Assembly: GCA_934169745.1 (NCBI GenBank)
Contig: CAKPOE010000001.1
Span: 200,856-264,855 of the forward strand
Length of the DNA stretch: 64,000 nt
Origin: an uncultured Clostridia bacterium
GTDB lineage: Bacteria; Bacillota; Clostridia; TANB77; UBA1234
Reading direction: 5' to 3'
The notes beneath the pieces are model-generated. The model worked only from the letters and a program-made list of their open reading frames with translations, was not told where the DNA came from and did not search any database. Positions within the stretch are counted from its first letter, which is position 1. The number at the start of each line of letters is the position of its first letter. This document shows positions 39,961 through 46,620 of the stretch, one piece after another. Both the position numbers and the translations under genes were made by a program.

Positions 39961-40686
39961 ATGGAAGATATTAGACTTCAAAAATATATGGCTGAATGTG
40001 GTGTGGCTTCAAGAAGAAAGTGTGAAGAATATATAACTAATGGAAAGGTGAAAATAAACGGCAAAACTGTATGTGAACTTGGAACAAAAGTAAATCCTGA
40101 GATTGATATTGTTGAGGTTGACGGCAAAAAGATAGGCGAAGAAAGAAAAGTATACATTCTTTTAAATAAGCCCGTGGGATATGTTACAACTGTATCGGAT
40201 GAACAAGGAAGAAAAACTGTTATGGAGCTTTTGAAAAACGTTAATGAAAAAGTTGTACCTGTTGGAAGACTAGATATGTACACTTCAGGTCTTTTACTAC
40301 TTTCAAATGATGGTGAATTCATATATAAAGTCACTCATCCAAAACATGAAACGACAAAGACATATATTGTTAAAACAAGAGGTGTGCCGGCAGAAAAAGA
40401 CTTGGAAAAAATGAGAAATGGTTTGAAAATAGAAGATTATATTACTTCACCAGCAAAAGTTGAACTATTGCTAAAAGATAATGTAAATAATGTTGCACGT
40501 ATTATGGTGCAAATTCATGAAGGAAGAAATAGGCAAGTAAGGAAAATGTGTGAGGCTGTTGGACTATCTGTAATTGCTCTAAAACGTGAAGGCATAGGAA
40601 AACTTACTTGCAAGGGTGTAGAGAAAGGTGAATGGAGGTACTTAACTGATGAAGAGGTTAAGGAAATAATGGAGAATGAGTATTAA
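39961..40686 (+). CDS. rluB: RsuA/RluB-family pseudouridine synthase
   Basis: S4 domain (RLQKYMAECGVASRRK), catalytic GRLDMYTSGLLLLSNDG. ATG with RBS GGGGGAA. Confidence 0.85.
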   Translation: MEDIRLQKYMAECGVASRRKCEEYITNGKVKINGKTVCELGTKVNPEIDIVEVDGKKIGEERKVYILLNKPVGYVTTVSDEQGRKTVMELLKNVNEKVVPVGRLDMYTSGLLLLSNDGEFIYKVTHPKHETTKTYIVKTRGVPAEKDLEKMRNGLKIEDYITSPAKVELLLKDNVNNVARIMVQIHEGRNRQVRKMCEAVGLSVIALKREGIGKLTCKGVEKGEWRYLTDEEVKEIMENEY

Positions 40687-41453
40687 TATTCATTTCTAAA
40701 AGTACATTTTTTGCAAAGTTCTTCAACAGCAATACGATTCTTAAATCCGTTAATTATTTTAACGGATTTTTCATTTGTGATTATATCTTTTAATTCTTCT
40801 GTAAATATATTTCCTAGAGCAATATCTCCATCATTATCTAAACAGCATGGAGTTACAGTTCCGTCAACAAGTATAGCCAATTGAGAAATTAATCCATAGC
40901 AGTATTTGTTTTCTTGGTTAGCATTTGAAGACAAAGTCGGCCATTCAAACTTATTTTTTTGAGAAAGAAATATATTCTTTGATAGAGTAAAGTTTTCATT
41001 ACTAGAAATCTTTGTATCAAATTCATTTTCAAGTGCTTGCTTTGTTTCTGCATTTTCGTCTATATTCCAAATTCTAAAACATACAATGCAATCAGTTATT
41101 TGTTTTGCAACCTTAATTATCTCTATGCTATTTGTTGCATGAAGAGATATATTTATTTGGCGTAAATATTTTGTTACATTGAGATGTTCTGACAATAGTG
41201 TTGCATTTGTTGTAAGATTTATGAAAAATCCATTATCATAAGCGTATTTAACAAATGTATCAAATTCAGGATGCAAAAGAGGCTCACCTTTAACATGTAA
41301 ATATATGTACTTTGTGTATGGTTTTATTTGAGAAAGAATAAATTTAAATTCATCAAAAGACATGAATTTATTTTCTCTGTGGTGTGGCAAACAAAAATCG
41401 CAGCTCAAATTGCAAATATTGGTTATTTCTATATAAACTCTCTTAAATCTCAT
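40683..41453 (-). CDS. radical SAM protein with C-terminal SPASM/twitch-like Cys cluster (function unknown)
   Basis: 256 aa from MRFKRVYIEITNICNLSCDFC (CxxxCxxC). Contains GEPLLHP and a C-terminal C-x17-CC-x36-CKKC pattern. RBS GGAGG. Its stop overlaps the rluB stop (tattaata). Confidence 0.75.
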   Translation of the reverse strand: MRFKRVYIEITNICNLSCDFCLPHHRENKFMSFDEFKFILSQIKPYTKYIYLHVKGEPLLHPEFDTFVKYAYDNGFFINLTTNATLLSEHLNVTKYLRQINISLHATNSIEIIKVAKQITDCIVCFRIWNIDENAETKQALENEFDTKISSNENFTLSKNIFLSQKNKFEWPTLSSNANQENKYCYGLISQLAILVDGTVTPCCLDNDGDIALGNIFTEELKDIITNEKSVKIINGFKNRIAVEELCKKCTFRNEY

Positions 41454-41474
41454 ACAAACTCCTCCATATCGCGT

Positions 41475-41503
41475 ATTATAACACACTTTAGCAAGTTTTT
41501 CAA
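41475..41503 (-). promoter_or_regulatory. sigma-A-type promoter of the radical SAM gene (TTGAAA-17-TATAAT), embedded in the 40-nt shared element
   Basis: Minus-strand reading: TTGAAAAACTTGCTAAAGTGTGTTATAAT, then GGAGG-ATG ~25 nt downstream. Confidence 0.55.
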
Positions 41504-41520
41504 AAATAGTTGACATTTTT
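41481..41520. repeat. 40-nt exact repeat, copy 1 (ACACACTTTAGCAAGTTTTTCAAAAATAGTTGACATTTTT)
   Basis: Identical to 46116-46155. It contains TTGACAT on the plus strand and TTGAAA(-35)+spacer on the minus strand. Confidence 0.9.
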
Positions 41521-41595
41521 ACGGTGCTACACAGGTCTAAATATGTGTTAAAATTAGTCATTACAAGAAAAATATGTAAGAGTTTACAAAAAATG

Positions 41596-41624
41596 TTGAC
41601 ATGCTCGCAATGACATTGTATAAT
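41596..41624 (+). promoter_or_regulatory. perfect consensus sigma-A promoter TTGACA-17-TATAAT for the PRTase/NADAR/PHP operon
   Basis: TTGACAtgctcgcaaTGACATtgTATAAT; the spacer carries a second TGACAT direct repeat. Confidence 0.6.
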
Positions 41625-41706
41625 TACATATAGTTGAAGAAGCATAGCCTAATTCTATTTGGAGTGGAAAAGACTTTTATGGTGGTTTTATAGTAAGGAG
41701 ATAAAA

Positions 41707-42894
41707 ATGGAAAAATTAAATTTAAACGAATTTGATTTTATGGGAATATTTTTATTGAGAGATGTTAATGGTATAGAAGATTTAGTAGAAAGAGTTGATC
41801 AAGATCTGTATTTGTCTAGAAATTATGACTATTACAAGCAAATGACATATACTGAACACTCTGAAAAACGTGAAAATTTGAAAAAGCGACTCAATGGTAA
41901 TTTTGATAAAAAGAATTTTGTTATCCTTGAAAACATGTTAAATTCATCTGCAAAGGTTTTCTATAATGAATTTCAAAGAAAGATTGTATTACCTAATGAG
42001 GAAAACCATATGAAAGAAGCACAGGAATGTATGGAAGAGGATGTTCAAAATATTGTAAGATTTTTTAATGGAACTTCAATATGTGTTTCTAAAGAATCAT
42101 TGCCAGTTGGTGAATTAAAAACGACGGATCGCGCAATTGAAATGGATAATAAGGCTTTGCTATATATTTATACAAGAGTGCTGAATTTTTCAAGAAAGAG
42201 GCATATTTTAACTCCTGGCTTGGGCTCAGTATACATAGGACCATTTTTTAAAGCCATGCATAATGTTGATTATACTAATGTTTTATTAAGTTTATATATT
42301 GTTGACAATATAAAATGTACAGAATATCGAGAACGAAAATTAAAAGAAATTACGTCAAATGATTTATATTTACGAGCAAATGAACCGATTTTGATATTAG
42401 ATGATAACATGGGAACTGGTGCGACAATGAAACTTTTGACTGAAAAAATTTTGTCTGATGGAGGGCAATCGGTGTGTGGCGCGATTCAGTATAATTGGCA
42501 CAATTATCACAAGGTTGAAATAGGAGAAAAGCATATAGAAAGGTTTAATGTGGAAATGATTGATTTATTAACACCGTTTGATTATCCAGGACACAAATTG
42601 ATAAAGCAATCTGTAATACAATTGAATAGATCGGGAAAAGATTATATCAATTATTTACAGTTGGTTGGGTATAGAAAAAGTGATATGAGTGACTTTCAGG
42701 TTTTGATTAAAAATGCTGAAGAAAACGCAAAAATGTGTGGCATAGATTTGTATGGAAGTGGCTATTATGGTATAATACCAAAAAAGTCTTCTGTGATTTT
42801 GTGCAAAGCATTAAGAAATGAAATCAATAGGATAAGTCGACAAAACAATGTAAAGAAACACAAAGATTTTGAAGAAGGGGAGGAAAGAGAATGA
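41707..42894 (+). CDS. large protein with type-I phosphoribosyltransferase (PRTase) domain plus unknown N- and C-terminal regions
   Basis: 395 aa from MEKLNLNEF (RBS TAAGGAG). PRPP-binding motif EPILILDDNMGTGATMKLL is preceded by ILTPGLGSVYIGPFFKA (PRTase core). ~180 aa of N-terminal sequence is unassigned. Confidence 0.65.
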   Translation: MEKLNLNEFDFMGIFLLRDVNGIEDLVERVDQDLYLSRNYDYYKQMTYTEHSEKRENLKKRLNGNFDKKNFVILENMLNSSAKVFYNEFQRKIVLPNEENHMKEAQECMEEDVQNIVRFFNGTSICVSKESLPVGELKTTDRAIEMDNKALLYIYTRVLNFSRKRHILTPGLGSVYIGPFFKAMHNVDYTNVLLSLYIVDNIKCTEYRERKLKEITSNDLYLRANEPILILDDNMGTGATMKLLTEKILSDGGQSVCGAIQYNWHNYHKVEIGEKHIERFNVEMIDLLTPFDYPGHKLIKQSVIQLNRSGKDYINYLQLVGYRKSDMSDFQVLIKNAEENAKMCGIDLYGSGYYGIIPKKSSVILCKALRNEINRISRQNNVKKHKDFEEGEERE

Positions 42895-43514
42895 ATTTAA
42901 CAATAAAAAAAGAACTGGAAGAATACAAAAAATTTAAAGAAAATTTTATATTTGTACAAAAGGAAATTGTGCAGAAAGGTGAAGATTTGTATTGTGATGA
43001 TGCTTTGGTATTATTGCATAATGCGGAAAAACCAGAGGGTAGTTCGGAAAAATGGATTAATGTTGGATATAAGCTAAAAGGTGCATTTTCTAAAGTGCTT
43101 TCCAACTTATTTCCATATGAATTCTGCTTTAGAGGAAAAAAACTTAATAGTATAGAATCTTTTTTTCAAGGAATTAAATTTAGAGATATTAACATGCAAG
43201 ATTATGTTTTAAAATATAGTGGATTAGACTCAAATAATATTAAAATTGCAAGTGATTTTGATTGGAAAAAAGAAGGAATTATTTATTGGCAAGGAACGGC
43301 AATAAAGCGAAACAGCAAGGAATATGAAGATTTAATTGATGAGTTGTATATATCAGCAATTCAGAATCCATTGTATCGAAACGCACTAAAAAATTGTGAC
43401 AAAGATATTATTCACTCGATTGGAGAAACAGAAAAGTCGGAAACTGTTTTTACAAGGTATGAATTTGAGCATCAACTAAATTGTTTAAAGTCTTTTATAC
43501 AAAAGAAAGATTAA
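42891..43514 (+). CDS. NADAR/YbiA-like (DUF1768) N-glycosidase-family protein
   Basis: 207 aa. LSNLFPYEFCFRGKKLNSIESFFQGIKF matches the NADAR core (FSNF..F...G..Y.S.EhyfQa.KF). The start overlaps the upstream stop (ATGA). Confidence 0.55.
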   Translation: MNLTIKKELEEYKKFKENFIFVQKEIVQKGEDLYCDDALVLLHNAEKPEGSSEKWINVGYKLKGAFSKVLSNLFPYEFCFRGKKLNSIESFFQGIKFRDINMQDYVLKYSGLDSNNIKIASDFDWKKEGIIYWQGTAIKRNSKEYEDLIDELYISAIQNPLYRNALKNCDKDIIHSIGETEKSETVFTRYEFEHQLNCLKSFIQKKD

Positions 43515-43579
43515 AAATTTTCTCCTACTTTTATACATATGATGAAGTTAAATATGAATAAAATCTTGGAGGTAAAATA

Positions 43580-44236
43580 ATGAGAAAAAAAGAATATGGA
43601 ACATTTATATTAAAGCCGGATATATTTGAACCAGAAAACTTGGAAGAACTGGCTAAGTTGCTGAAAGTATACGATTTGCCAGTAAAAGGAACTTTTATTA
43701 TTGATAATTATTATGAATTTAGTCTTTCTTATAGAAAATATGATTTAAAGATACGATATGGAGACAATAGGCAAGAATACGAGAGAAATCTAAAAAGAAA
43801 TATGGTTGCGATAAACGCATATAATATGGAGTATAAAGGACCTGCAAATCGAGGCGTTATACTGTTTGTGTGTAATCAATTCGAAAATGATGATATATTT
43901 TATGACAATATGTTTAAATTAAAAACAGAACTGAGAGATAGAATCGAAAAGAGGCGAGGGTATGTTACATTCCTTTATATGGGACAAGACCCATGGTTTA
44001 CTTTTAGAGATAAAAAAGAACGACTTTCTCAATTGAGAACGCATGAAAATAAAACTGTTGATATAGCTTTTATAAATGCAATACATCTAGAAGATAGAGA
44101 TTTGTTTGAAATGGATGCTTGTAGTAAATTTGTGTATGAAAGTGGAATAATGAGTAGGGAAAATGTTATTTATTTAGAACAGTTAAAGGATAATTATGTA
44201 CTTCGATTACCTAGTTTTAGTGAGAAGGAGGTTTAA
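43580..44236 (+). CDS. hypothetical protein (weak NDK-like N-terminus)
   Basis: 218 aa. YGTFILKPDIF resembles the NDK ERTFIMIKPDG start and there is a His in ...INAIHLEDRD. Otherwise unassigned. Confidence 0.35.
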   Translation: MRKKEYGTFILKPDIFEPENLEELAKLLKVYDLPVKGTFIIDNYYEFSLSYRKYDLKIRYGDNRQEYERNLKRNMVAINAYNMEYKGPANRGVILFVCNQFENDDIFYDNMFKLKTELRDRIEKRRGYVTFLYMGQDPWFTFRDKKERLSQLRTHENKTVDIAFINAIHLEDRDLFEMDACSKFVYESGIMSRENVIYLEQLKDNYVLRLPSFSEKEV

Positions 44237-44238
44237 AC

Positions 44239-45108
44239 ATGTATGATTTTCATATTCACTCAAGTTGGTCTGATGGAGTTTTGAGTGAAGTAGAAATACT
44301 AGAAAAAATAAAGGAGAAAAACATCAAGTATTTTTCGCTTACAGATCATGATAATATTGAAGGATCGAAAAGAATTTTGGGTTACAAAGATTTTTTAAAT
44401 AAATATGGAATACAATTTATAATTGGTGTTGAATTGACGTCGAATTACAAGAATAGGAGAACCCATTTATTAGCATATGGCTTTGATAAAGATAGCGTGT
44501 TCATGCAAGATTTGTTGGAAAAACTAAAAGAAAAAAGTTGGGAACATACTTTGTATAGAATGGAGTATTTAAAAAATAATTTTGACATTACATTGAGTGA
44601 TTCTTCTTATGAATATATGAAGGGAAAAGCTATTATAAAAAAACCAATAATAGCAGAATGTATGAAGAATGAAGGGCTTGTTGCATCAAAAGGAGAAGCC
44701 ATTAGAGAATATATAAACAAAGTACCAGAAAAGGATTTCTCTGTTACACCAAAAGAAATTGCTGAAAGCGTACATAAAGCAGGTGGAAAAGTTTTTTTGG
44801 CACATCCATTTGGCGAAGCTTGCGATGAAATATTTGAAAATGATGAATTTGAAAAATACATTGATGGTTTGATAAAAGAAGGTATTGATGGAATGGAGTG
44901 TTATTATTCTGCATATAACAATGCTCAAATAGATTACCTGCTAAGTATTGCAAAAGAAAGAAGTATTTTGATATCAGGTGGAAGCGATTATCACGGGACA
45001 AAATACAGAATTGGAGAAATAGGAAAAATTACTTTGGAAGATTATGAATTAGAAAAAAGCGATTTGACAATATTGAATTTGTTTAAAAATAATAAGGGGT
45101 TAATGTAA
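44239..45108 (+). CDS. PHP-domain metal-dependent phosphoesterase (TrpH/YciV-like), paralog 1
   Basis: MYDFHIHSSWSDG, LTDHD, AHPF and GGSDYHG motifs. Confidence 0.8.
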   Translation: MYDFHIHSSWSDGVLSEVEILEKIKEKNIKYFSLTDHDNIEGSKRILGYKDFLNKYGIQFIIGVELTSNYKNRRTHLLAYGFDKDSVFMQDLLEKLKEKSWEHTLYRMEYLKNNFDITLSDSSYEYMKGKAIIKKPIIAECMKNEGLVASKGEAIREYINKVPEKDFSVTPKEIAESVHKAGGKVFLAHPFGEACDEIFENDEFEKYIDGLIKEGIDGMECYYSAYNNAQIDYLLSIAKERSILISGGSDYHGTKYRIGEIGKITLEDYELEKSDLTILNLFKNNKGLM

Positions 45109-45135
45109 ATATACAAAAAAATTTGATGAGAAGCA

Positions 45136-45175
45136 AAATATGGCACTAGTTTTTTATAACTGGTGCCATATTTTT
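45136..45175. terminator. bidirectional terminator between the convergent PHP paralogs
   Basis: aaaatatggcac-tagttttttataact-ggtgccatatttt. Confidence 0.65.
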
Positions 45176-46026
45176 TAAAAGATTGATAAAATAGAAAGCT
45201 GACTTGAATCTATGGGTGTATGATCCAAAGATGTTTGACCAATAGTGCCATATTTGTTTGGATTGCCGTGGCAATCACTACCAGCTGAAATGAGTAAATT
45301 ATATTTTTTTGCCAAATTTAATAAAAATCTAATTTTCTTGTTATCATAGGCGGAATAATAGCATTCCATACCATCAATACCAAGTTTCACTAAAGAATAT
45401 ATGTATGGTTCTATAGTTGAAATATTAAATATTTCATCACTGCTTTCACCAAAAGGATGTGCAAGAAAAACTTTTCCTTTAGCAGCGTGCACTAGATTTA
45501 TTGCTGTTTTTGAATCAAGATAAAAATTTTCTTTAGGAATTTTATTTATATACTCTTTAATTGCTTCGCCTTTTGATGTAACAAAACCCTCATTTTTCAT
45601 GCATTCAGCAATGTTTGGCTTTGTTACACTGTCCCTGCCTTTTAAATATTCTATAGATTCATTACTTAAAGAAATGTTAAAGATTTCTTTAAGCTTTTGA
45701 ATTCTATATAAAGACTCATTCCATTTGTTTGCCTTTAACATCTTTAAAAGAGTAATCATATTTTTATTTTCATAGTCAAAACCGTATGCTAATAGGTGCG
45801 TTTTAAAGCCGTCCATTGAAGTACTGAGTTCAGCACCAATGATAAATTTGATTTTATTTTTCGTTAAAAAATTCTGATACTTGGTTAGGATTTCTTTGGA
45901 GCCAGTTATTGTATCATGGTCAGTTAGAGAAAAATATTTTACATTATTTTGTACAACCTTTTCTAACAGTTCATTGATGTCATAAGCACCATCAGAATAT
46001 TTTGAATGCATATGAAAATCATACAT
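45175..46026 (-). CDS. PHP-domain metal-dependent phosphoesterase (TrpH/YciV-like), paralog 2
   Basis: 284 aa from MYDFHMHSKYSDG (RBS GGAGGTG). Colinear with paralog 1 and roughly half identical to it (LTDHD, AHPFGE, SAGSDCHG). Confidence 0.8.
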   Translation of the reverse strand: MYDFHMHSKYSDGAYDINELLEKVVQNNVKYFSLTDHDTITGSKEILTKYQNFLTKNKIKFIIGAELSTSMDGFKTHLLAYGFDYENKNMITLLKMLKANKWNESLYRIQKLKEIFNISLSNESIEYLKGRDSVTKPNIAECMKNEGFVTSKGEAIKEYINKIPKENFYLDSKTAINLVHAAKGKVFLAHPFGESSDEIFNISTIEPYIYSLVKLGIDGMECYYSAYDNKKIRFLLNLAKKYNLLISAGSDCHGNPNKYGTIGQTSLDHTPIDSSQLSILSIF

Positions 46027-46115
46027 TGATTTACACCTCCGTATGACTCTTATTTTAATACATAAAGAGATTTGTGTCAAATTATTAGGATGTTGCCTGT
46101 TGTTATATTTGTACG

Positions 46116-46155
46116 ACACACTTTAGCAAGTTTTTCAAAAATAGTTGACATTTTT
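46116..46155. repeat. 40-nt exact repeat, copy 2
   Basis: Identical to 41481-41520. Here the plus-strand TTGACA (46145-46150) pairs with TATAAT (46169-46174, 18-nt spacer) to drive the valS T-box leader. The minus-strand TTGCTA-16-TATAAC (or TTGAAA) points at PHP paralog 2. Confidence 0.9.
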
Positions 46156-46185
46156 TGGACTTTGGTAGTATAATAGACACATATT

Positions 46186-46424
46186 GTAAAGACGTTGAGC
46201 AAGAGGAGTAGATTTTTGAGGCTTGATAGAGAGGAAAAGTCGTTGGCTGAAAGCTTTTCTTAAGTTAGAAAATTGAACGTAGCTTGTGAGTCTCAATACT
46301 GAACTAAGAGTAAGTGTTGACGTATGCATGCGTTAAATGTGCTAAGGCAATGATTTTAAATCATTGTAAATTAAGGTGGTACCACGACAGACTCGTCCTT
46401 TGGATTGATGTCTGTCTTTTTTAT
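46186..46424 (+). promoter_or_regulatory. T-box riboswitch leader (valine specifier GUC) with terminator
   Basis: AGAGAGG box, specifier region gaaaaGUCg, T-box sequence aattaaGGTGGTACCacg (46369-46386), terminator gacagac...gtctgtc+TTTTTT (46386-46424). Sits upstream of valS. Confidence 0.8.
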
Positions 46425-46443
46425 ACGACAAGGAAGTGATGGG

Positions 46444-46620
46444 ATGTTTTTGAAAATATTAGGTGCGGTGATGGCACTCGTCGGACTTATCTTTGTTTTT
46501 GACGCAAGAAGAATTATTAAAAAGAGTTTTCCAACTGCAGAAGAGAATAATACAGTTTTAGGCTGTAAAATATTTGGAGCATTAGTGGCAACTATTGGTG
46601 GAATTTTGATGATAATATAG
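46444..46620 (+). CDS. small 2-TM membrane protein between the T-box and valS
   Basis: 58 aa MFLKILGAVMALVGLIFVFDARRIIKK...GALVATIGGILMII; RBS GGAAGTGATGGG. Confidence 0.5.
   Translation: MFLKILGAVMALVGLIFVFDARRIIKKSFPTAEENNTVLGCKIFGALVATIGGILMII

What the first reader, a model, noticed from the sequence alone, without database searches (positions are those of the whole stretch)
40683..46160. Compact accessory island of nucleotide/ADP-ribose-processing enzymes between rluB and the valS T-box: radical SAM, PRTase-domain fusion, NADAR, NDK-like and two PHP phosphoesterases
Six genes sit in an otherwise housekeeping stretch between rluB and valS. They are: a 256-aa radical SAM protein with a SPASM/twitch-like Cys tail (minus strand); a 395-aa protein built around a type-I phosphoribosyltransferase core (ILILDDNMGTGAT) with large unassigned N- and C-terminal extensions; a NADAR/YbiA-like domain protein (LSNLFPYEFCFRGKKLNSIESFFQGIKF), which is translationally coupled (ATGA overlap); a 218-aa protein whose N-terminus (GTFILKPD) weakly resembles nucleoside-diphosphate kinase; and two paralogous TrpH-like PHP phosphoesterases arranged tail to tail. 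NADAR domains are N-glycosidases on ADP-ribose-type substrates and have been linked to reversal of DNA ADP-ribosylation. PRTases and PHP enzymes make and trim phosphoribosyl/nucleotide phosphoesters, and a radical SAM enzyme could modify the base or sugar, as in viperin-like or 7-deazapurine-type chemistry. I do not recognise this combination as a described pathway. It could be a small-nucleoside biosynthetic pathway, an NAD/ADP-ribose-based defence or counter-defence module, or a nucleotide-repair system.
Basis: partly seen in the sequence, partly recalled or inferred. Interest (0 to 1): 0.85.

Follow-up and report, generated by a model that had tools for sequence, protein, structure and literature searches.

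The report
Conserved phosphoribosyltransferase–NADAR gene pair, not a six-gene island
The six genes are real, but only two of them form a unit conserved across many gut Firmicutes: a novel phosphoribosyltransferase-fold protein and a phage-T4-gp30.3-type NADAR N-glycosidase, an uncharacterised "make and break" enzyme pair that resembles a recently validated anti-phage system only in architecture.

Summary
All six ORFs exist as described, and five of the six domain calls hold. These are radical SAM+SPASM, a type-I PRT core, NADAR (specifically the gp30.3/AdfN clade with the catalytic His) and two TrpH-like PHP paralogs. The NDK-like call stays weak.

The six genes are not one conserved unit.
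- **Core pair.** In 33 species-level genomes of gut Clostridia and Bacilli, the PRT-like and gp30.3-type NADAR genes are adjacent in 31, 0–40 bp apart, in either order.
- **Radical SAM gene.** It is a neighbour only in the window's own species.
- **p218 and the PHP genes.** The 218-aa protein occurs only in the window's clade. Elsewhere it is fused to a PHP domain, which ties it to PHP1.
- **Other lineages.** The pair sits next to other nucleotide phosphoesterases: YjjX NTPase, NPP and PHP.

Best reading: a dispensable operon in which a PRPP-dependent transferase makes an N-ribosyl-phosphate compound, and the NADAR and phosphoesterases remove it.

A toxin–antidote or anti-phage role remains a serious rival. 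The precedent would be E. coli DS-32 (PRTase+NADAR), whose PRTase is not homologous to this one.

Interest is moderate. The pair is a new variant of a known kind.

The parts
41596..41624 (+). Promoter-like site (TTGACA-17-TATAAT, 12/12 matches) upstream of the PRT-like gene. An AGGAGA ribosome-binding site lies at 41697-41702.
   Evidence: This is a consensus match only, and such sites are not enriched over shuffled sequence.
41707..42894 (+). PRT-like protein, 395 aa. It has an N-terminal helical domain (about residues 1-160), a type-I phosphoribosyltransferase core with the invariant PRPP loop ILILDDNMGTGAT (D232, D233), and a C-terminal helical region. It is core component 1 of the conserved pair.
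   Evidence: Adjacent to the NADAR gene in 31 of 33 genomes.
42891..43514 (+). gp30.3/AdfN-type NADAR N-glycosidase, 207 aa, with an N-terminal extension of about 65 aa. SNLF71-74, E89, FQ92-93, K96 and H175 are invariant. It is translationally coupled to the PRT-like gene through an ATGA overlap. It is core component 2.
   Evidence: PMC11125620; PMC11257639.
43580..44236 (+). p218, a clade-restricted protein with a ferredoxin-like N-terminal half and invariant KPD and N-x-I-H-L-E motifs. It may be a divergent NDK-like phosphotransfer protein. Other organisms carry it fused to a PHP domain.
44239..45108 (+). PHP1, a TrpH/YciV-like PHP phosphoesterase of 289 aa. It starts 2 bp after the p218 stop codon and is the last gene of the plus-strand operon.
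45136..45173 (.). Inverted repeat (AAATATGGCAC ... GTGCCATATTT) flanked by A and T runs, between the convergent PHP genes. It is probably a bidirectional terminator.
   Evidence: Read directly. The scan did not report it.
45175..46026 (-). PHP2, a paralog of PHP1 (54% identity, 283 aa). It is transcribed convergently and has its own promoter-like site at 46080-46052.
   Evidence: Conserved with the block in L035, L044 and L045.
40683..41453 (-). Radical SAM/SPASM protein, 256 aa, with CxxxCxxC at C14/C18/C21. It is a divergent neighbour and I judge that it is NOT part of the conserved module.
   Evidence: It is present only in the 97% relative L036 and absent from this position in L035, L044, L045 and L046. 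No rSAM homolog was found in any of the 33 loci.

Best explanation
The core is a two-gene "write/erase" module.

**The two enzymes.**
- The PRT-like enzyme uses PRPP to attach ribose-5-phosphate to a purine-like acceptor through an N-glycosidic bond. This is inferred from the invariant PRPP loop and a core that resembles xanthine/guanine PRTases.
- The co-translated gp30.3/AdfN-type NADAR hydrolyses that kind of N-ribosyl bond. N-glycosidase activity has been shown for relatives and is inferred here.

**Substrate and accessory genes.** The substrate is most likely a small-molecule nucleotide. Nucleotide phosphoesterases travel with the pair and would trim the phosphates of the same compound.
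- In the window's clade these are the NDK-like p218 plus two TrpH-type PHP enzymes.
- In other lineages they are YjjX ITP/XTPase, an NPP-type phosphodiesterase or a PHP.

**Status of the module.** It is dispensable. It behaves as if the PRT product must be kept in check: the erasers act as safeguards, which is toxin/antidote-like logic at the metabolite level.

**Transcription units.** The plus-strand genes PRT, NADAR, p218 and PHP1 form one operon, and PHP2 is a separate convergent unit. The radical SAM gene is an unrelated neighbour.
For: **Shown.**
- The pair is adjacent in 31 of 33 genomes. In 28 loci the gap is between -40 and +40 bp.
- Pairwise identities of the two proteins correlate at r=0.91.
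- The PRPP loop is invariant, as are 42 columns of the alignment.
- The PRT fold is supported.
- The NADAR belongs to PF08010, and its catalytic His175 aligns with the His of phage gp30.3.
- Recurrent neighbours are YjjX/PF01931 in 14 loci, NPP/PF01663 in 5 (directly adjacent in L008 and L034), PHP in 8 and guaA in 4.
- p218-PHP fusions exist (P0114, P0115).
- The five-gene block keeps together while its genomic position changes.
- The context is housekeeping, with no PADLOC hit.
- The pair is not carried by phages.

**From the literature.**
- NADARs are N-glycosidases, both on small molecules (YbiA in riboflavin metabolism) and on guanine-ADP-ribose (PMC9503650, PMC11125620).

**Inferred.**
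- The actual substrates and the direction of flux.
Against: - There is no biochemistry for any member of this PRT family. The window protein itself misses the Pfam threshold.
- The large conserved helical domains of the PRT-like protein would suit a macromolecular substrate.
- The only known activity of gp30.3-type NADARs is removal of ADP-ribose from guanine in DNA (PMC11257639).
- The pair is rare: 33 of about 185,000 species.
- The PRT gene is disrupted or deleted in at least five lineages in which the NADAR gene stays intact (L022, L024/L030, L048, L052/53). The reverse was never seen. A macromolecule-targeting toxin-antitoxin pair would also predict this asymmetry.
- Neighbour associations were not tested against a formal background model.
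Confidence: 0.42

Rival explanations
1. A toxin-antitoxin or anti-phage defence pair that targets macromolecules. The PRT-like protein would phosphoribosylate guanine or another base in DNA or RNA using PRPP, and the gp30.3-type NADAR would be the antitoxin that removes the adduct. This would be a PRPP-based analogue of DarT1-NADAR, YarT-YbiA and E. coli DS-32. It could also be the bacterial source of the phage AdfN gene.
For: - DS-32 (PRTase + NADAR) is validated as anti-phage (bioRxiv 2025.01.08.631726; PMC13092281 supplement).
- NADARs act as antitoxins in DarT1 and YarT operons (PMC11125620).
- AdfN-type NADARs are reported to be closest to the DarT1-linked ones (PMC11257639).
- The two genes form a tightly overlapping operon.
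- The PRT gene is repeatedly frameshifted or deleted while the NADAR gene stays intact.
- Relatives carry a divergent XRE-type HTH gene, and the block has moved between genomes.
Against: - The PRT-like protein has no detectable homology to DS-32A (hhalign E=0.37).
- There are no PADLOC hits.
- The neighbours are core housekeeping genes and nucleotide phosphoesterases, not defence islands.
- The NADAR is strongly conserved (median 56% identity) and the distribution looks largely vertical.
- The asymmetry in gene decay is not significant once gene length is allowed for (about p=0.1).
Confidence: 0.3
2. Ordinary purine salvage or nucleotide-pool balancing. The NADAR would act as an NMP or nucleoside N-ribohydrolase, in the manner of Amn or PpnN. 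The PRT-like protein would be a specialised xanthine/hypoxanthine/guanine PRTase that re-captures the released base. No toxicity logic is involved.
For: - The best structural matches of the PRT core are purine PRTases 1vdm and 7kl6.
- guaA and YjjX (ITP/XTPase) are recurrent neighbours.
- The pair sits in a stable, housekeeping context in prevalent gut species.
Against: - The pair is rare and dispensable, and it decays repeatedly.
- The roughly 250 extra conserved residues of the PRT-like protein have no counterpart in salvage PRTases.
- No salvage role is known for gp30.3-type NADARs.
Confidence: 0.15
3. One reading: all six genes, the radical SAM enzyme included, form one pathway that builds or repairs a modified nucleoside.
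For: - The six genes are physically close.
- A different radical SAM gene lies in an operon with a HIT-like gene and the pair in three Bacilli/Tenericutes genomes.
Against: - The window's rSAM is next to the block only in the 97% relative.
- It is absent from that position in L035, L044, L045 and L046.
- It has its own promoter-like site on the opposite strand.
- It shares only the generic radical SAM core with the Bacilli gene (31% identity over 86 aa).
- None of the 33 loci contains a homolog of it.
Confidence: 0.05
4. Chance juxtaposition of unrelated, separately conserved housekeeping genes.
For: - PHP/TrpH and radical SAM proteins are common families.
- There is no GC anomaly.
Against: - The pair is adjacent in 31 of 33 genomes.
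- p218 is found fused to PHP in other organisms.
- The five-gene block moves as a unit.
Confidence: 0.03

Closest known systems
DS-32 ('NADR') of E. coli: PRTase WP_000097610.1 + NADAR WP_032260665.1, a validated anti-phage system (DefensePredictor, PMC13092281)
   Same: It is a two-gene operon with a PRT-fold protein first and a NADAR protein second, and the stop and start overlap. Its mechanism is unknown, and its authors suggested toxin-antitoxin partner swapping.
   Different: DS-32A resembles retron type III PRTases and shows no detectable similarity to this family (hhalign E=0.37). DS-32B is a PF08719 NADAR that its authors compare structurally with the DarTG antitoxin; it matches only the hallmark motif here (E=0.009). 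The host and genomic context differ, and no defence test exists for the pair found here.
T4 gp30.3 = AdfN, the phage anti-DarT1 NADAR (PMC11257639, PMC11125620)
   Same: Both belong to Pfam family PF08010 (E 5e-29). They are 28-34% identical, and the clade-defining His in the last strand is conserved (H175).
   Different: AdfN is an orphan phage gene. The protein here is chromosomal and bacterial, carries about 65 extra N-terminal residues, and essentially always sits next to a PRT-fold partner.
DarT1-NADAR and YarT-YbiA toxin-antitoxin systems
   Same: In both, a NADAR hydrolase is encoded next to a transferase that creates an N-glycosidic ribosyl adduct.
   Different: The partner here has a type-I PRT fold and presumably uses PRPP. 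It is not an ART-fold enzyme that uses NAD+, and no DarT or ART domain was found.
YbiA/COG3236 N-glycosidase (riboflavin-intermediate damage control); the E. coli ybiA locus also holds ybiB
   Same: It has the NADAR fold and acts on small ribosyl-phosphate compounds. The hallmark SNF...E..FQ..KF motif aligns (hhalign E=0.0019).
   Different: YbiA has a catalytic Glu where this protein has His. There is no linkage to rib genes here. YbiB has a different (TrpD-like) fold according to PMC11125620.
Small type-I purine PRTases (P. horikoshii 1vdm, H. pylori XGHPRT 7kl6)
   Different: Identity is only 8-12%. This protein carries about 160 N-terminal and 100 C-terminal helical residues that contain many invariant polar positions. 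No full-length structural match exists in the PDB.
TrpH/YciV PHP phosphoesterases (RNase AM; 3',5'-nucleoside bisphosphate phosphatase)
   Same: PHP1 and PHP2 have the PHP domain and the HxH motif, and they align full-length to those NCBIfam models.
   Different: Their scores (99-105 bits) are far below the equivalog cut-offs (375-400). The gene is duplicated and linked to p218.
Ter-associated PRTase + phosphoesterase + ATP-grasp 'nucleoside-like metabolite' modules (summarised in PMC7824862)
   Same: PRTase and phosphoesterase genes occur together. Twelve of 33 family members weakly hit PF15609 PRTase_2. p218 relatives are fused or linked to ATP-grasp proteins.
   Different: There are no Ter genes here, and the phosphoesterase is PHP rather than HAD. 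NADAR is not part of Ter modules.

Membership tests
Radical SAM / SPASM | CxxxCxxC cluster motif, and Pfam PF04055 and PF13186 scores above the gathering thresholds | tested here: met
   C14-x3-C18-x2-C21 is present in the sequence. Scores are 42.5 bits against 29.5 and 50 bits against 21.5.
Prokaryotic viperin (pVip) | Full-length match to the viperin models (NCBIfam NF038283, cut-off 180 bits) | tested here: not met
   The score is 38.9 bits. The PADLOC pVip match covers only residues 6-111, the generic radical SAM core.
Type I phosphoribosyltransferase | PRPP-binding loop: four hydrophobic residues, two acidic residues, then x-x-[ST]-G-x-[ST] | tested here: met
   ILILDDNMGTGAT is present. 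D232, D233, N234, G236, T237, G238 and T240 are invariant in 33 sequences.
Type I phosphoribosyltransferase | Pfam PF00156 score above the gathering threshold | tested here: inconclusive
   The window protein scores 13 bits against 26.3. At E<=0.01, 25 of 33 family members match, with a best E of 6e-10.
Type I phosphoribosyltransferase | PRT core fold | tested here: met
Type I phosphoribosyltransferase | PRPP-dependent transferase activity | not testable with these tools
   This needs an enzyme assay.
NADAR superfamily, gp30.3/AdfN clade | Match to Pfam PF08010 and homology to phage gp30.3 proteins | tested here: met
   The score is 101 bits against a cut-off of 36. It matches PHROG 652 and 780 T4-like phage records at 30-35% identity.
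NADAR superfamily, gp30.3/AdfN clade | His replaces the catalytic Glu/Asp in the last strand (PMC11125620, PMC11257639) | tested here: met
   H175 is invariant in 23 sequences. It aligns with the His of the ECD7 and QD01 gp30.3 proteins.
NADAR superfamily, gp30.3/AdfN clade | Orphan phage-encoded gene | tested here: not met
   The gene is chromosomal in gut Firmicutes and always has a partner. The single IMG/VR locus is the host flank next to a prophage integrase.
NADAR superfamily, gp30.3/AdfN clade | Guanine-ADP-ribose glycohydrolase activity | not testable with these tools
   This needs an assay on ADP-ribosylated DNA.
DarT1-NADAR / YarT-YbiA toxin-antitoxin systems | Adjacent ART-fold ADP-ribosyltransferase toxin | tested here: not met
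   The partner has a PRT fold, and neither Pfam nor PADLOC finds an ART or DarT domain.
DS-32 (PRTase+NADAR defence) | Two-gene operon with a PRT-fold gene followed by a NADAR gene | tested here: met
DS-32 (PRTase+NADAR defence) | Homology of both proteins to DS-32A and DS-32B | tested here: not met
   hhalign gives E=0.37 for A1 against DS-32A, which is no alignment of the PRT core. A3 against DS-32B gives E=0.009, over the motif only.
DS-32 (PRTase+NADAR defence) | Protection against phage | not testable with these tools
   This needs a phage challenge experiment.
Nucleoside diphosphate kinase (for p218) | Significant match to NDK models or structures, plus the catalytic N-x-x-H motif and the KPD lysine | tested here: inconclusive
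TrpH/YciV PHP phosphoesterase | PHP domain above the Pfam cut-off | tested here: met
   Scores are 39.8 and 53.5 bits against 26.4. The HxH motif is at residues 5-7.
RNase AM / 3',5'-bisphosphate nucleotidase equivalogs | NCBIfam equivalog cut-offs (375 and 400 bits) | tested here: not met
   The best scores are 104.9 and 98.9 bits.
Known defence systems (PADLOC-DB v2) | Any component matching a defence-system model | tested here: not met
   The only matches are the generic radical SAM match to pVip and a weak PHP1 hit to a PADLOC transmembrane model (E 0.014); the PRT-like protein, the NADAR, p218 and PHP2 match nothing.

The most novel reading that the evidence does not exclude
The PRT-like protein is the cognate bacterial partner of the gp30.3/AdfN NADAR clade, which has so far been known only as an orphan phage gene. 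In this reading it is a PRPP-dependent phosphoribosyltransferase toxin or effector. It would modify guanine or another base in nucleic acids, or generate a poisonous nucleotide, and the NADAR would reverse the modification. That would define a new toxin-antitoxin or defence family based on phosphoribosylation rather than ADP-ribosylation. It would also identify the bacterial reservoir from which T4-like phages acquired AdfN.
Probability: 0.25. Interest if true: 0.85.

Novelty: new variant of a known kind. Interest (0 to 1): 0.55.

Why it matters
**Link to the phage NADAR literature.** NADAR enzymes have recently been recognised as erasers of nucleic-acid ADP-ribosylation. The gp30.3/AdfN clade was described as a phage-specific "orphan antitoxin".

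**What is new here.** This locus shows a chromosomal bacterial branch of that clade. It is locked to a partner gene whose fold implies PRPP chemistry rather than NAD+ chemistry. The partner's architecture has no solved full-length counterpart.

**What follows if it is a toxin-antidote or defence pair.**
- It would extend the DarT/DarG logic to phosphoribosylation.
- It would suggest a mechanism for systems such as E. coli DS-32.
- It would explain where phage AdfN came from.

**What follows if it is metabolic.** It would define a new nucleotide damage-control or salvage route in abundant, uncultured gut Firmicutes.

**Testability.** Either way, the two genes are small, widely sampled and directly testable.

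Tried and rejected
- **Homology to DS-32.** The sequences were taken from the PMC13092281 supplement. The PRT proteins are unrelated and the NADARs share only the hallmark motif.
- **Phage origin of the pair.** tblastn of the PRT-like protein against 50,697 phage records found nothing. IMG/VR gave one locus, which is the host flank beside a prophage integrase.
- **Radical SAM gene as a component.** No homolog was found in any of the 33 loci. It is only generically similar to the radical SAM gene of the Bacilli operon.
- **Viperin or QueE-type assignment of the radical SAM protein.** The scores are far below the cut-offs.
- **p218 homologs in other loci that carry the pair.** None were found.
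- **YjjX, NPP, HIT-like or Bacilli-type rSAM homologs elsewhere in the 64-kb window.** None were found.
- **PDB sequence search with the NADAR-like protein.** It returned only spurious hits.
- **AFDB50 fold search.** The library was unavailable, so no AlphaFold-database neighbours were obtained.
- **Fold search with the p218 model.** The model has pLDDT 50. The search gave only generic ferredoxin-like hits with some NDKs, and I treat it as inconclusive.
- **Compositional evidence for horizontal transfer.** There is none.
- **Literature search for a described PRTase+NADAR pair in Firmicutes.** The only PRTase+NADAR gene pair that surfaced was DS-32, in E. coli. A search for "PRTase-CE" found nothing.

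Full report
**1. What is in the sequence**

The region 40683-46160 holds six ORFs exactly as described:
- a radical SAM gene at 40683-41453 (-), 256 aa from the start that gene callers use in relatives;
- a PRT-like gene at 41707-42894 (+), 395 aa, with AGGAGA 5 nt upstream of the ATG;
- a NADAR-like gene at 42891-43514 (+), joined to the PRT-like gene by an ATGA overlap;
- p218 at 43580-44236 (+);
- PHP1 at 44239-45108 (+);
- PHP2 at 45175-46026 (-).

The flanks are an rluB-like gene (S4 + PseudoU_synth_2) and a T-box leader at 46186-46403 (128.7 bits) ahead of valS. GC content is 27-32%, the same as the surroundings.

Promoter-like sites with 11-12 of 12 matches precede the PRT-like gene (41596-41624, +), the radical SAM gene (41503-41475, -) and PHP2 (46080-46052, -). 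An 11-bp perfect inverted repeat with flanking A and T runs separates the two convergent PHP genes.

This points to three transcription units: the radical SAM gene alone, the PRT-NADAR-p218-PHP1 operon, and PHP2 alone.

**2. Domain calls**

*Radical SAM protein.* Radical_SAM (42.5 bits) and SPASM (50 bits) both pass their Pfam thresholds. No specific NCBIfam equivalog comes close. Viperin scores 38.9 bits against a cut-off of 180, and the PADLOC pVip match covers only the generic N-terminal half.

*PRT-like protein.*
- The window protein scores only 13 bits on PF00156.
- It belongs to a well-conserved family of about 100 unnamed metagenomic proteins. Forty-two alignment columns are invariant, including DDNxGTGxT.
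- Twenty-five of 33 members hit PF00156, with a best E of 6e-10.
- An AlphaFold model built from this alignment is confident (pLDDT 89.7, pTM 0.90).
- Against predicted viral structures, the best hits are nearly all PRTases, though weak.

*NADAR-like protein.*
- It matches PF08010 Phage_30_3 at E 5e-29 and PHROG 652.
- It also matches 780 T4-like phage genomes at 30-35% identity.
- The literature defines gp30.3 proteins as the phage NADAR subfamily, in which a His replaces the catalytic Glu/Asp (PMC11125620).
- T4 gp30.3 has been renamed AdfN. It is a counter-defence enzyme that removes DarT1-made ADP-ribose from guanine (PMC11257639).
- In the window protein, H175 is invariant and aligns with the His of phage gp30.3.
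- The SN[LF]...E..FQ..KF motif aligns with E. coli YbiA (hhalign E 0.0019).

*PHP1 and PHP2.* Both are TrpH-like PHP proteins. They are 54% identical to each other and fall far below the RNase AM and pAp-phosphatase equivalog cut-offs.

*p218.*
- It has no Pfam, NCBIfam, PHROG or PADLOC hit.
- A profile search of 1.84 billion representative proteins finds only 28 relatives.
- The invariant residues include K12-P13-D14 and N166-x-x-H169-L-E, which resemble the NDK KPD and NxxH motifs.
- The three best PDB profile hits are NDKs, but they are not significant (E 0.45-1.6).
- hhalign against E. coli Ndk gives E 0.021 over 32 residues.
- The NDK idea is therefore plausible but unproven.

**3. Which genes belong together**

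*The conserved pair.*
- A scan of one genome per species (185,579 species) with the PRT-family alignment found 33 loci. All are uncultured gut Clostridia, Bacilli or "Tenericutes" MAGs.
- BLAST of the window proteins against the ORFs of those loci shows a gp30.3-type gene immediately next to the PRT-like gene in 31 of 33.
- The two exceptions are a 1.8-kb contig and L003. In L003 the PRT gene is broken and the NADAR gene is gone.
- In 28 loci with intact genes, the intergenic distance is between -40 and +40 bp, and both gene orders occur.
- Pairwise identities of the two proteins correlate at r=0.91.
- The NADAR is the more conserved partner (median identity 56% against 39%).

*The other window genes.*
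- No locus contains a homolog of the window's radical SAM protein.
- p218 is found only in the close relatives.

*The five-gene block in the window's clade (PRT identity 65% or more).*
- PRT, NADAR, p218, PHP and the convergent PHP are kept together.
- The block lies in three different places:
  - between rluB/rSAM and valS in the window and L036;
  - after a DHHW gene and a divergent XRE-type HTH gene in L044-L046;
  - upstream of lspA-rluD-glgA, behind CYTH-like and MazG-like genes, in L035.
- Relatives carry an extra ORF of 174-215 aa between the two PHP genes. The window lacks it.

*Decay of the block.*
- In L003 the PRT gene is split, and the NADAR and p218 genes are missing.
- In L052/L053 only the NADAR gene is intact. 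The PRT and p218 genes are absent and both PHP genes are fragments.

*p218 and PHP.* Two distant p218 relatives (P0114, P0115) are fused to a PHP domain that is 30-33% identical to PHP1 and PHP2. This explains the 2-bp spacing between p218 and PHP1 and ties those two genes together functionally. Other p218 relatives are fused to an ATP-grasp-like domain, or sit between ATP-grasp and Nudix genes.

**4. Context of the pair in other lineages**

Clustering the neighbouring ORFs and scanning them against Pfam gave these recurrent neighbours:
- a YjjX-type ITP/XTPase (PF01931) directly beside the pair in 14 loci, whose PRT proteins are as little as 41% identical to one another;
- an NPP-type phosphodiesterase (PF01663) in 5 loci, directly adjacent in L008 and L034;
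- a TrpH-like PHP within 8 kb in 8 loci;
- guaA in 4 loci.

Three Bacilli/Tenericutes genomes carry a four-gene operon. It consists of a radical SAM gene (448 aa), a HIT-like gene, a 790-aa protein whose C-terminal half is the PRT-like module, and the NADAR gene. That radical SAM protein shares only the generic core with the window's.

In very prevalent gut species, the pair lies among core genes such as ffh-rpsP-trmD and rimP-nusA-infB.

The pair is not carried by phages. tblastn of the PRT-like protein against phage genomes is empty. The single IMG/VR locus is the flank next to a prophage integrase and repressor.

Several genomes carry frameshifted PRT genes while the NADAR gene is intact:
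- L024 and L030, at an A7 tract;
- L048;
- L022.

The reverse case, an intact PRT gene with a lost NADAR gene, was not seen.

**5. How it most likely works**

What is shown:
- an obligate, co-translated pair;
- a PRT fold with an intact PRPP loop;
- a NADAR with the AdfN-type catalytic constellation;
- recurrent nucleotide phosphoesterase neighbours.

What is established for relatives:
- type-I PRTases form N-glycosidic bonds from PRPP;
- NADARs hydrolyse N-ribosyl bonds, both in small molecules (YbiA) and on guanine in DNA (PMC9503650, PMC11125620).

What I infer: the PRT-like protein makes an N-ribosyl-5-phosphate compound on a purine-like acceptor, the NADAR reverses it, and the phosphoesterases handle the phosphates of the same compound (YjjX, NPP or PHP elsewhere; p218 plus the two PHPs here). 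I favour a small-molecule substrate with safeguard logic (confidence 0.42).

Rivals:
- A DNA- or RNA-directed toxin-antitoxin or defence pair is the main rival (0.30). The precedents are strong: DarT1-NADAR, YarT-YbiA and, above all, E. coli DS-32, a validated PRTase+NADAR anti-phage system. The asymmetric loss of the PRT gene also fits. However, DS-32A is not homologous to this PRT family, PADLOC is silent, and the neighbourhoods are housekeeping rather than defence islands.
- Plain purine salvage is possible (0.15), but it fits poorly with the rarity, the dispensability and the large extra domains.
- The six-gene pathway including the radical SAM enzyme (0.05) is essentially excluded.
- Pure chance adjacency (0.03) is essentially excluded for the pair and for p218-PHP.

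**6. Novelty and verdict**

In the literature I could search, the only described PRTase+NADAR combination is DS-32. gp30.3-type NADARs are treated there as phage-specific orphans.

A chromosomal Firmicute branch of that clade, locked to a PRT-fold partner with a novel architecture, is therefore a new variant of a known kind. It is not a categorically new system, and it is not the six-gene pathway first proposed.

Interest is moderate (0.55). It would rise sharply if the PRT-like protein proved to be a PRPP-dependent toxin that the NADAR reverses.

Noticed in passing
L029:4689-9784, L031:4692-9775, L032:4702-9741: Three Bacilli/Tenericutes MAGs carry a conserved four-gene operon. It consists of a radical SAM gene (448 aa, CDFRCREC motif, 77-81% identical among the three), a HIT-like gene (about 245 aa, lacking the HxHxH motif), a 790-aa protein made of an unknown N-terminal half of about 400 aa plus the PRT-like module, and a gp30.3-type NADAR gene. 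The flanking genes differ between the three genomes.
   Followed up: partly
P0114, P0115, P0123 (proteins): Distant relatives of p218 occur as fusions. In two cases p218 is followed by a TrpH-like PHP domain. In one case an ATP-grasp-like N-terminal half of about 290 aa is followed by p218.
   Followed up: partly
L039:651-5863 (also L040, L041): A p218-like gene sits in a cluster of AAA_28 kinase-like, aminotransferase, DcsG_N (ATP-grasp), a 273-aa unknown, p218-like and NUDIX genes. This is a separate nucleotide-centred gene cluster of unknown function.
   Followed up: no
L035:385-9792: In the 70%-identical relative, the block is preceded by a run of genes that suggest nucleotide or sugar modification. 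They are a radical SAM gene, two DegT aminotransferases, a PHP gene, a GT28-like gene, a Nuc_deoxyrib_tr-like gene, a class-I aaRS-like gene, and ASCH-like, MazG-like and CYTH-like genes. Several of these Pfam hits are weak.
   Followed up: no
L024:5868-5876; L030:8001-9254; L048:5626-6889; L022:8034-9484: The PRT-like gene is frameshifted in several genomes while the adjacent NADAR gene is intact. In L024 and L030 the shift lies at an A7 tract that would read through as A8. This could be real inactivation, phase variation or assembly error.
   Followed up: partly
L052:7001-9534, L053:1828-4361: This is a decayed version of the block. The NADAR gene is intact (78% identical to the window's), but the PRT and p218 genes are absent and both PHP genes are reduced to fragments of 52-141 aa.
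   Followed up: partly
window 46405-46620: A 71-aa ORF with two hydrophobic segments lies between the valS T-box (46186-46403) and valS (46639). A 58-aa gene is called at the same place in L036. It may be a small membrane protein co-transcribed under T-box control, or it may be a spurious ORF.
   Followed up: no
window 45108-45175 against L036:6958-7491, L044:5079-5726, L045:5646-6170: Relatives have an extra ORF of 174-215 aa, with no Pfam family, between PHP1 and PHP2. The window has only a 66-bp spacer containing a hairpin, so that gene is missing here.
   Followed up: partly
window 40683-40686: The stop codons of rluB (+) and the radical SAM gene (-) overlap by 4 bp, so the two genes converge with no intergenic terminator. 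The terminator-like hairpin at 40743-40769 lies inside the 3' end of the radical SAM gene.
   Followed up: no
L043:1-5296: The only IMG/VR contig that carries the pair starts with the NADAR and PRT genes. A serine recombinase, a CI-like repressor and phage genes follow directly. In that genome the pair therefore sits at a prophage integration boundary.
   Followed up: partly
L003:6883-7881: In the relative whose PRT gene is broken, the upstream gene is a spore photoproduct lyase (PF20903, E 3e-73). This is a radical SAM DNA-repair enzyme unrelated to the window's radical SAM gene.
   Followed up: no
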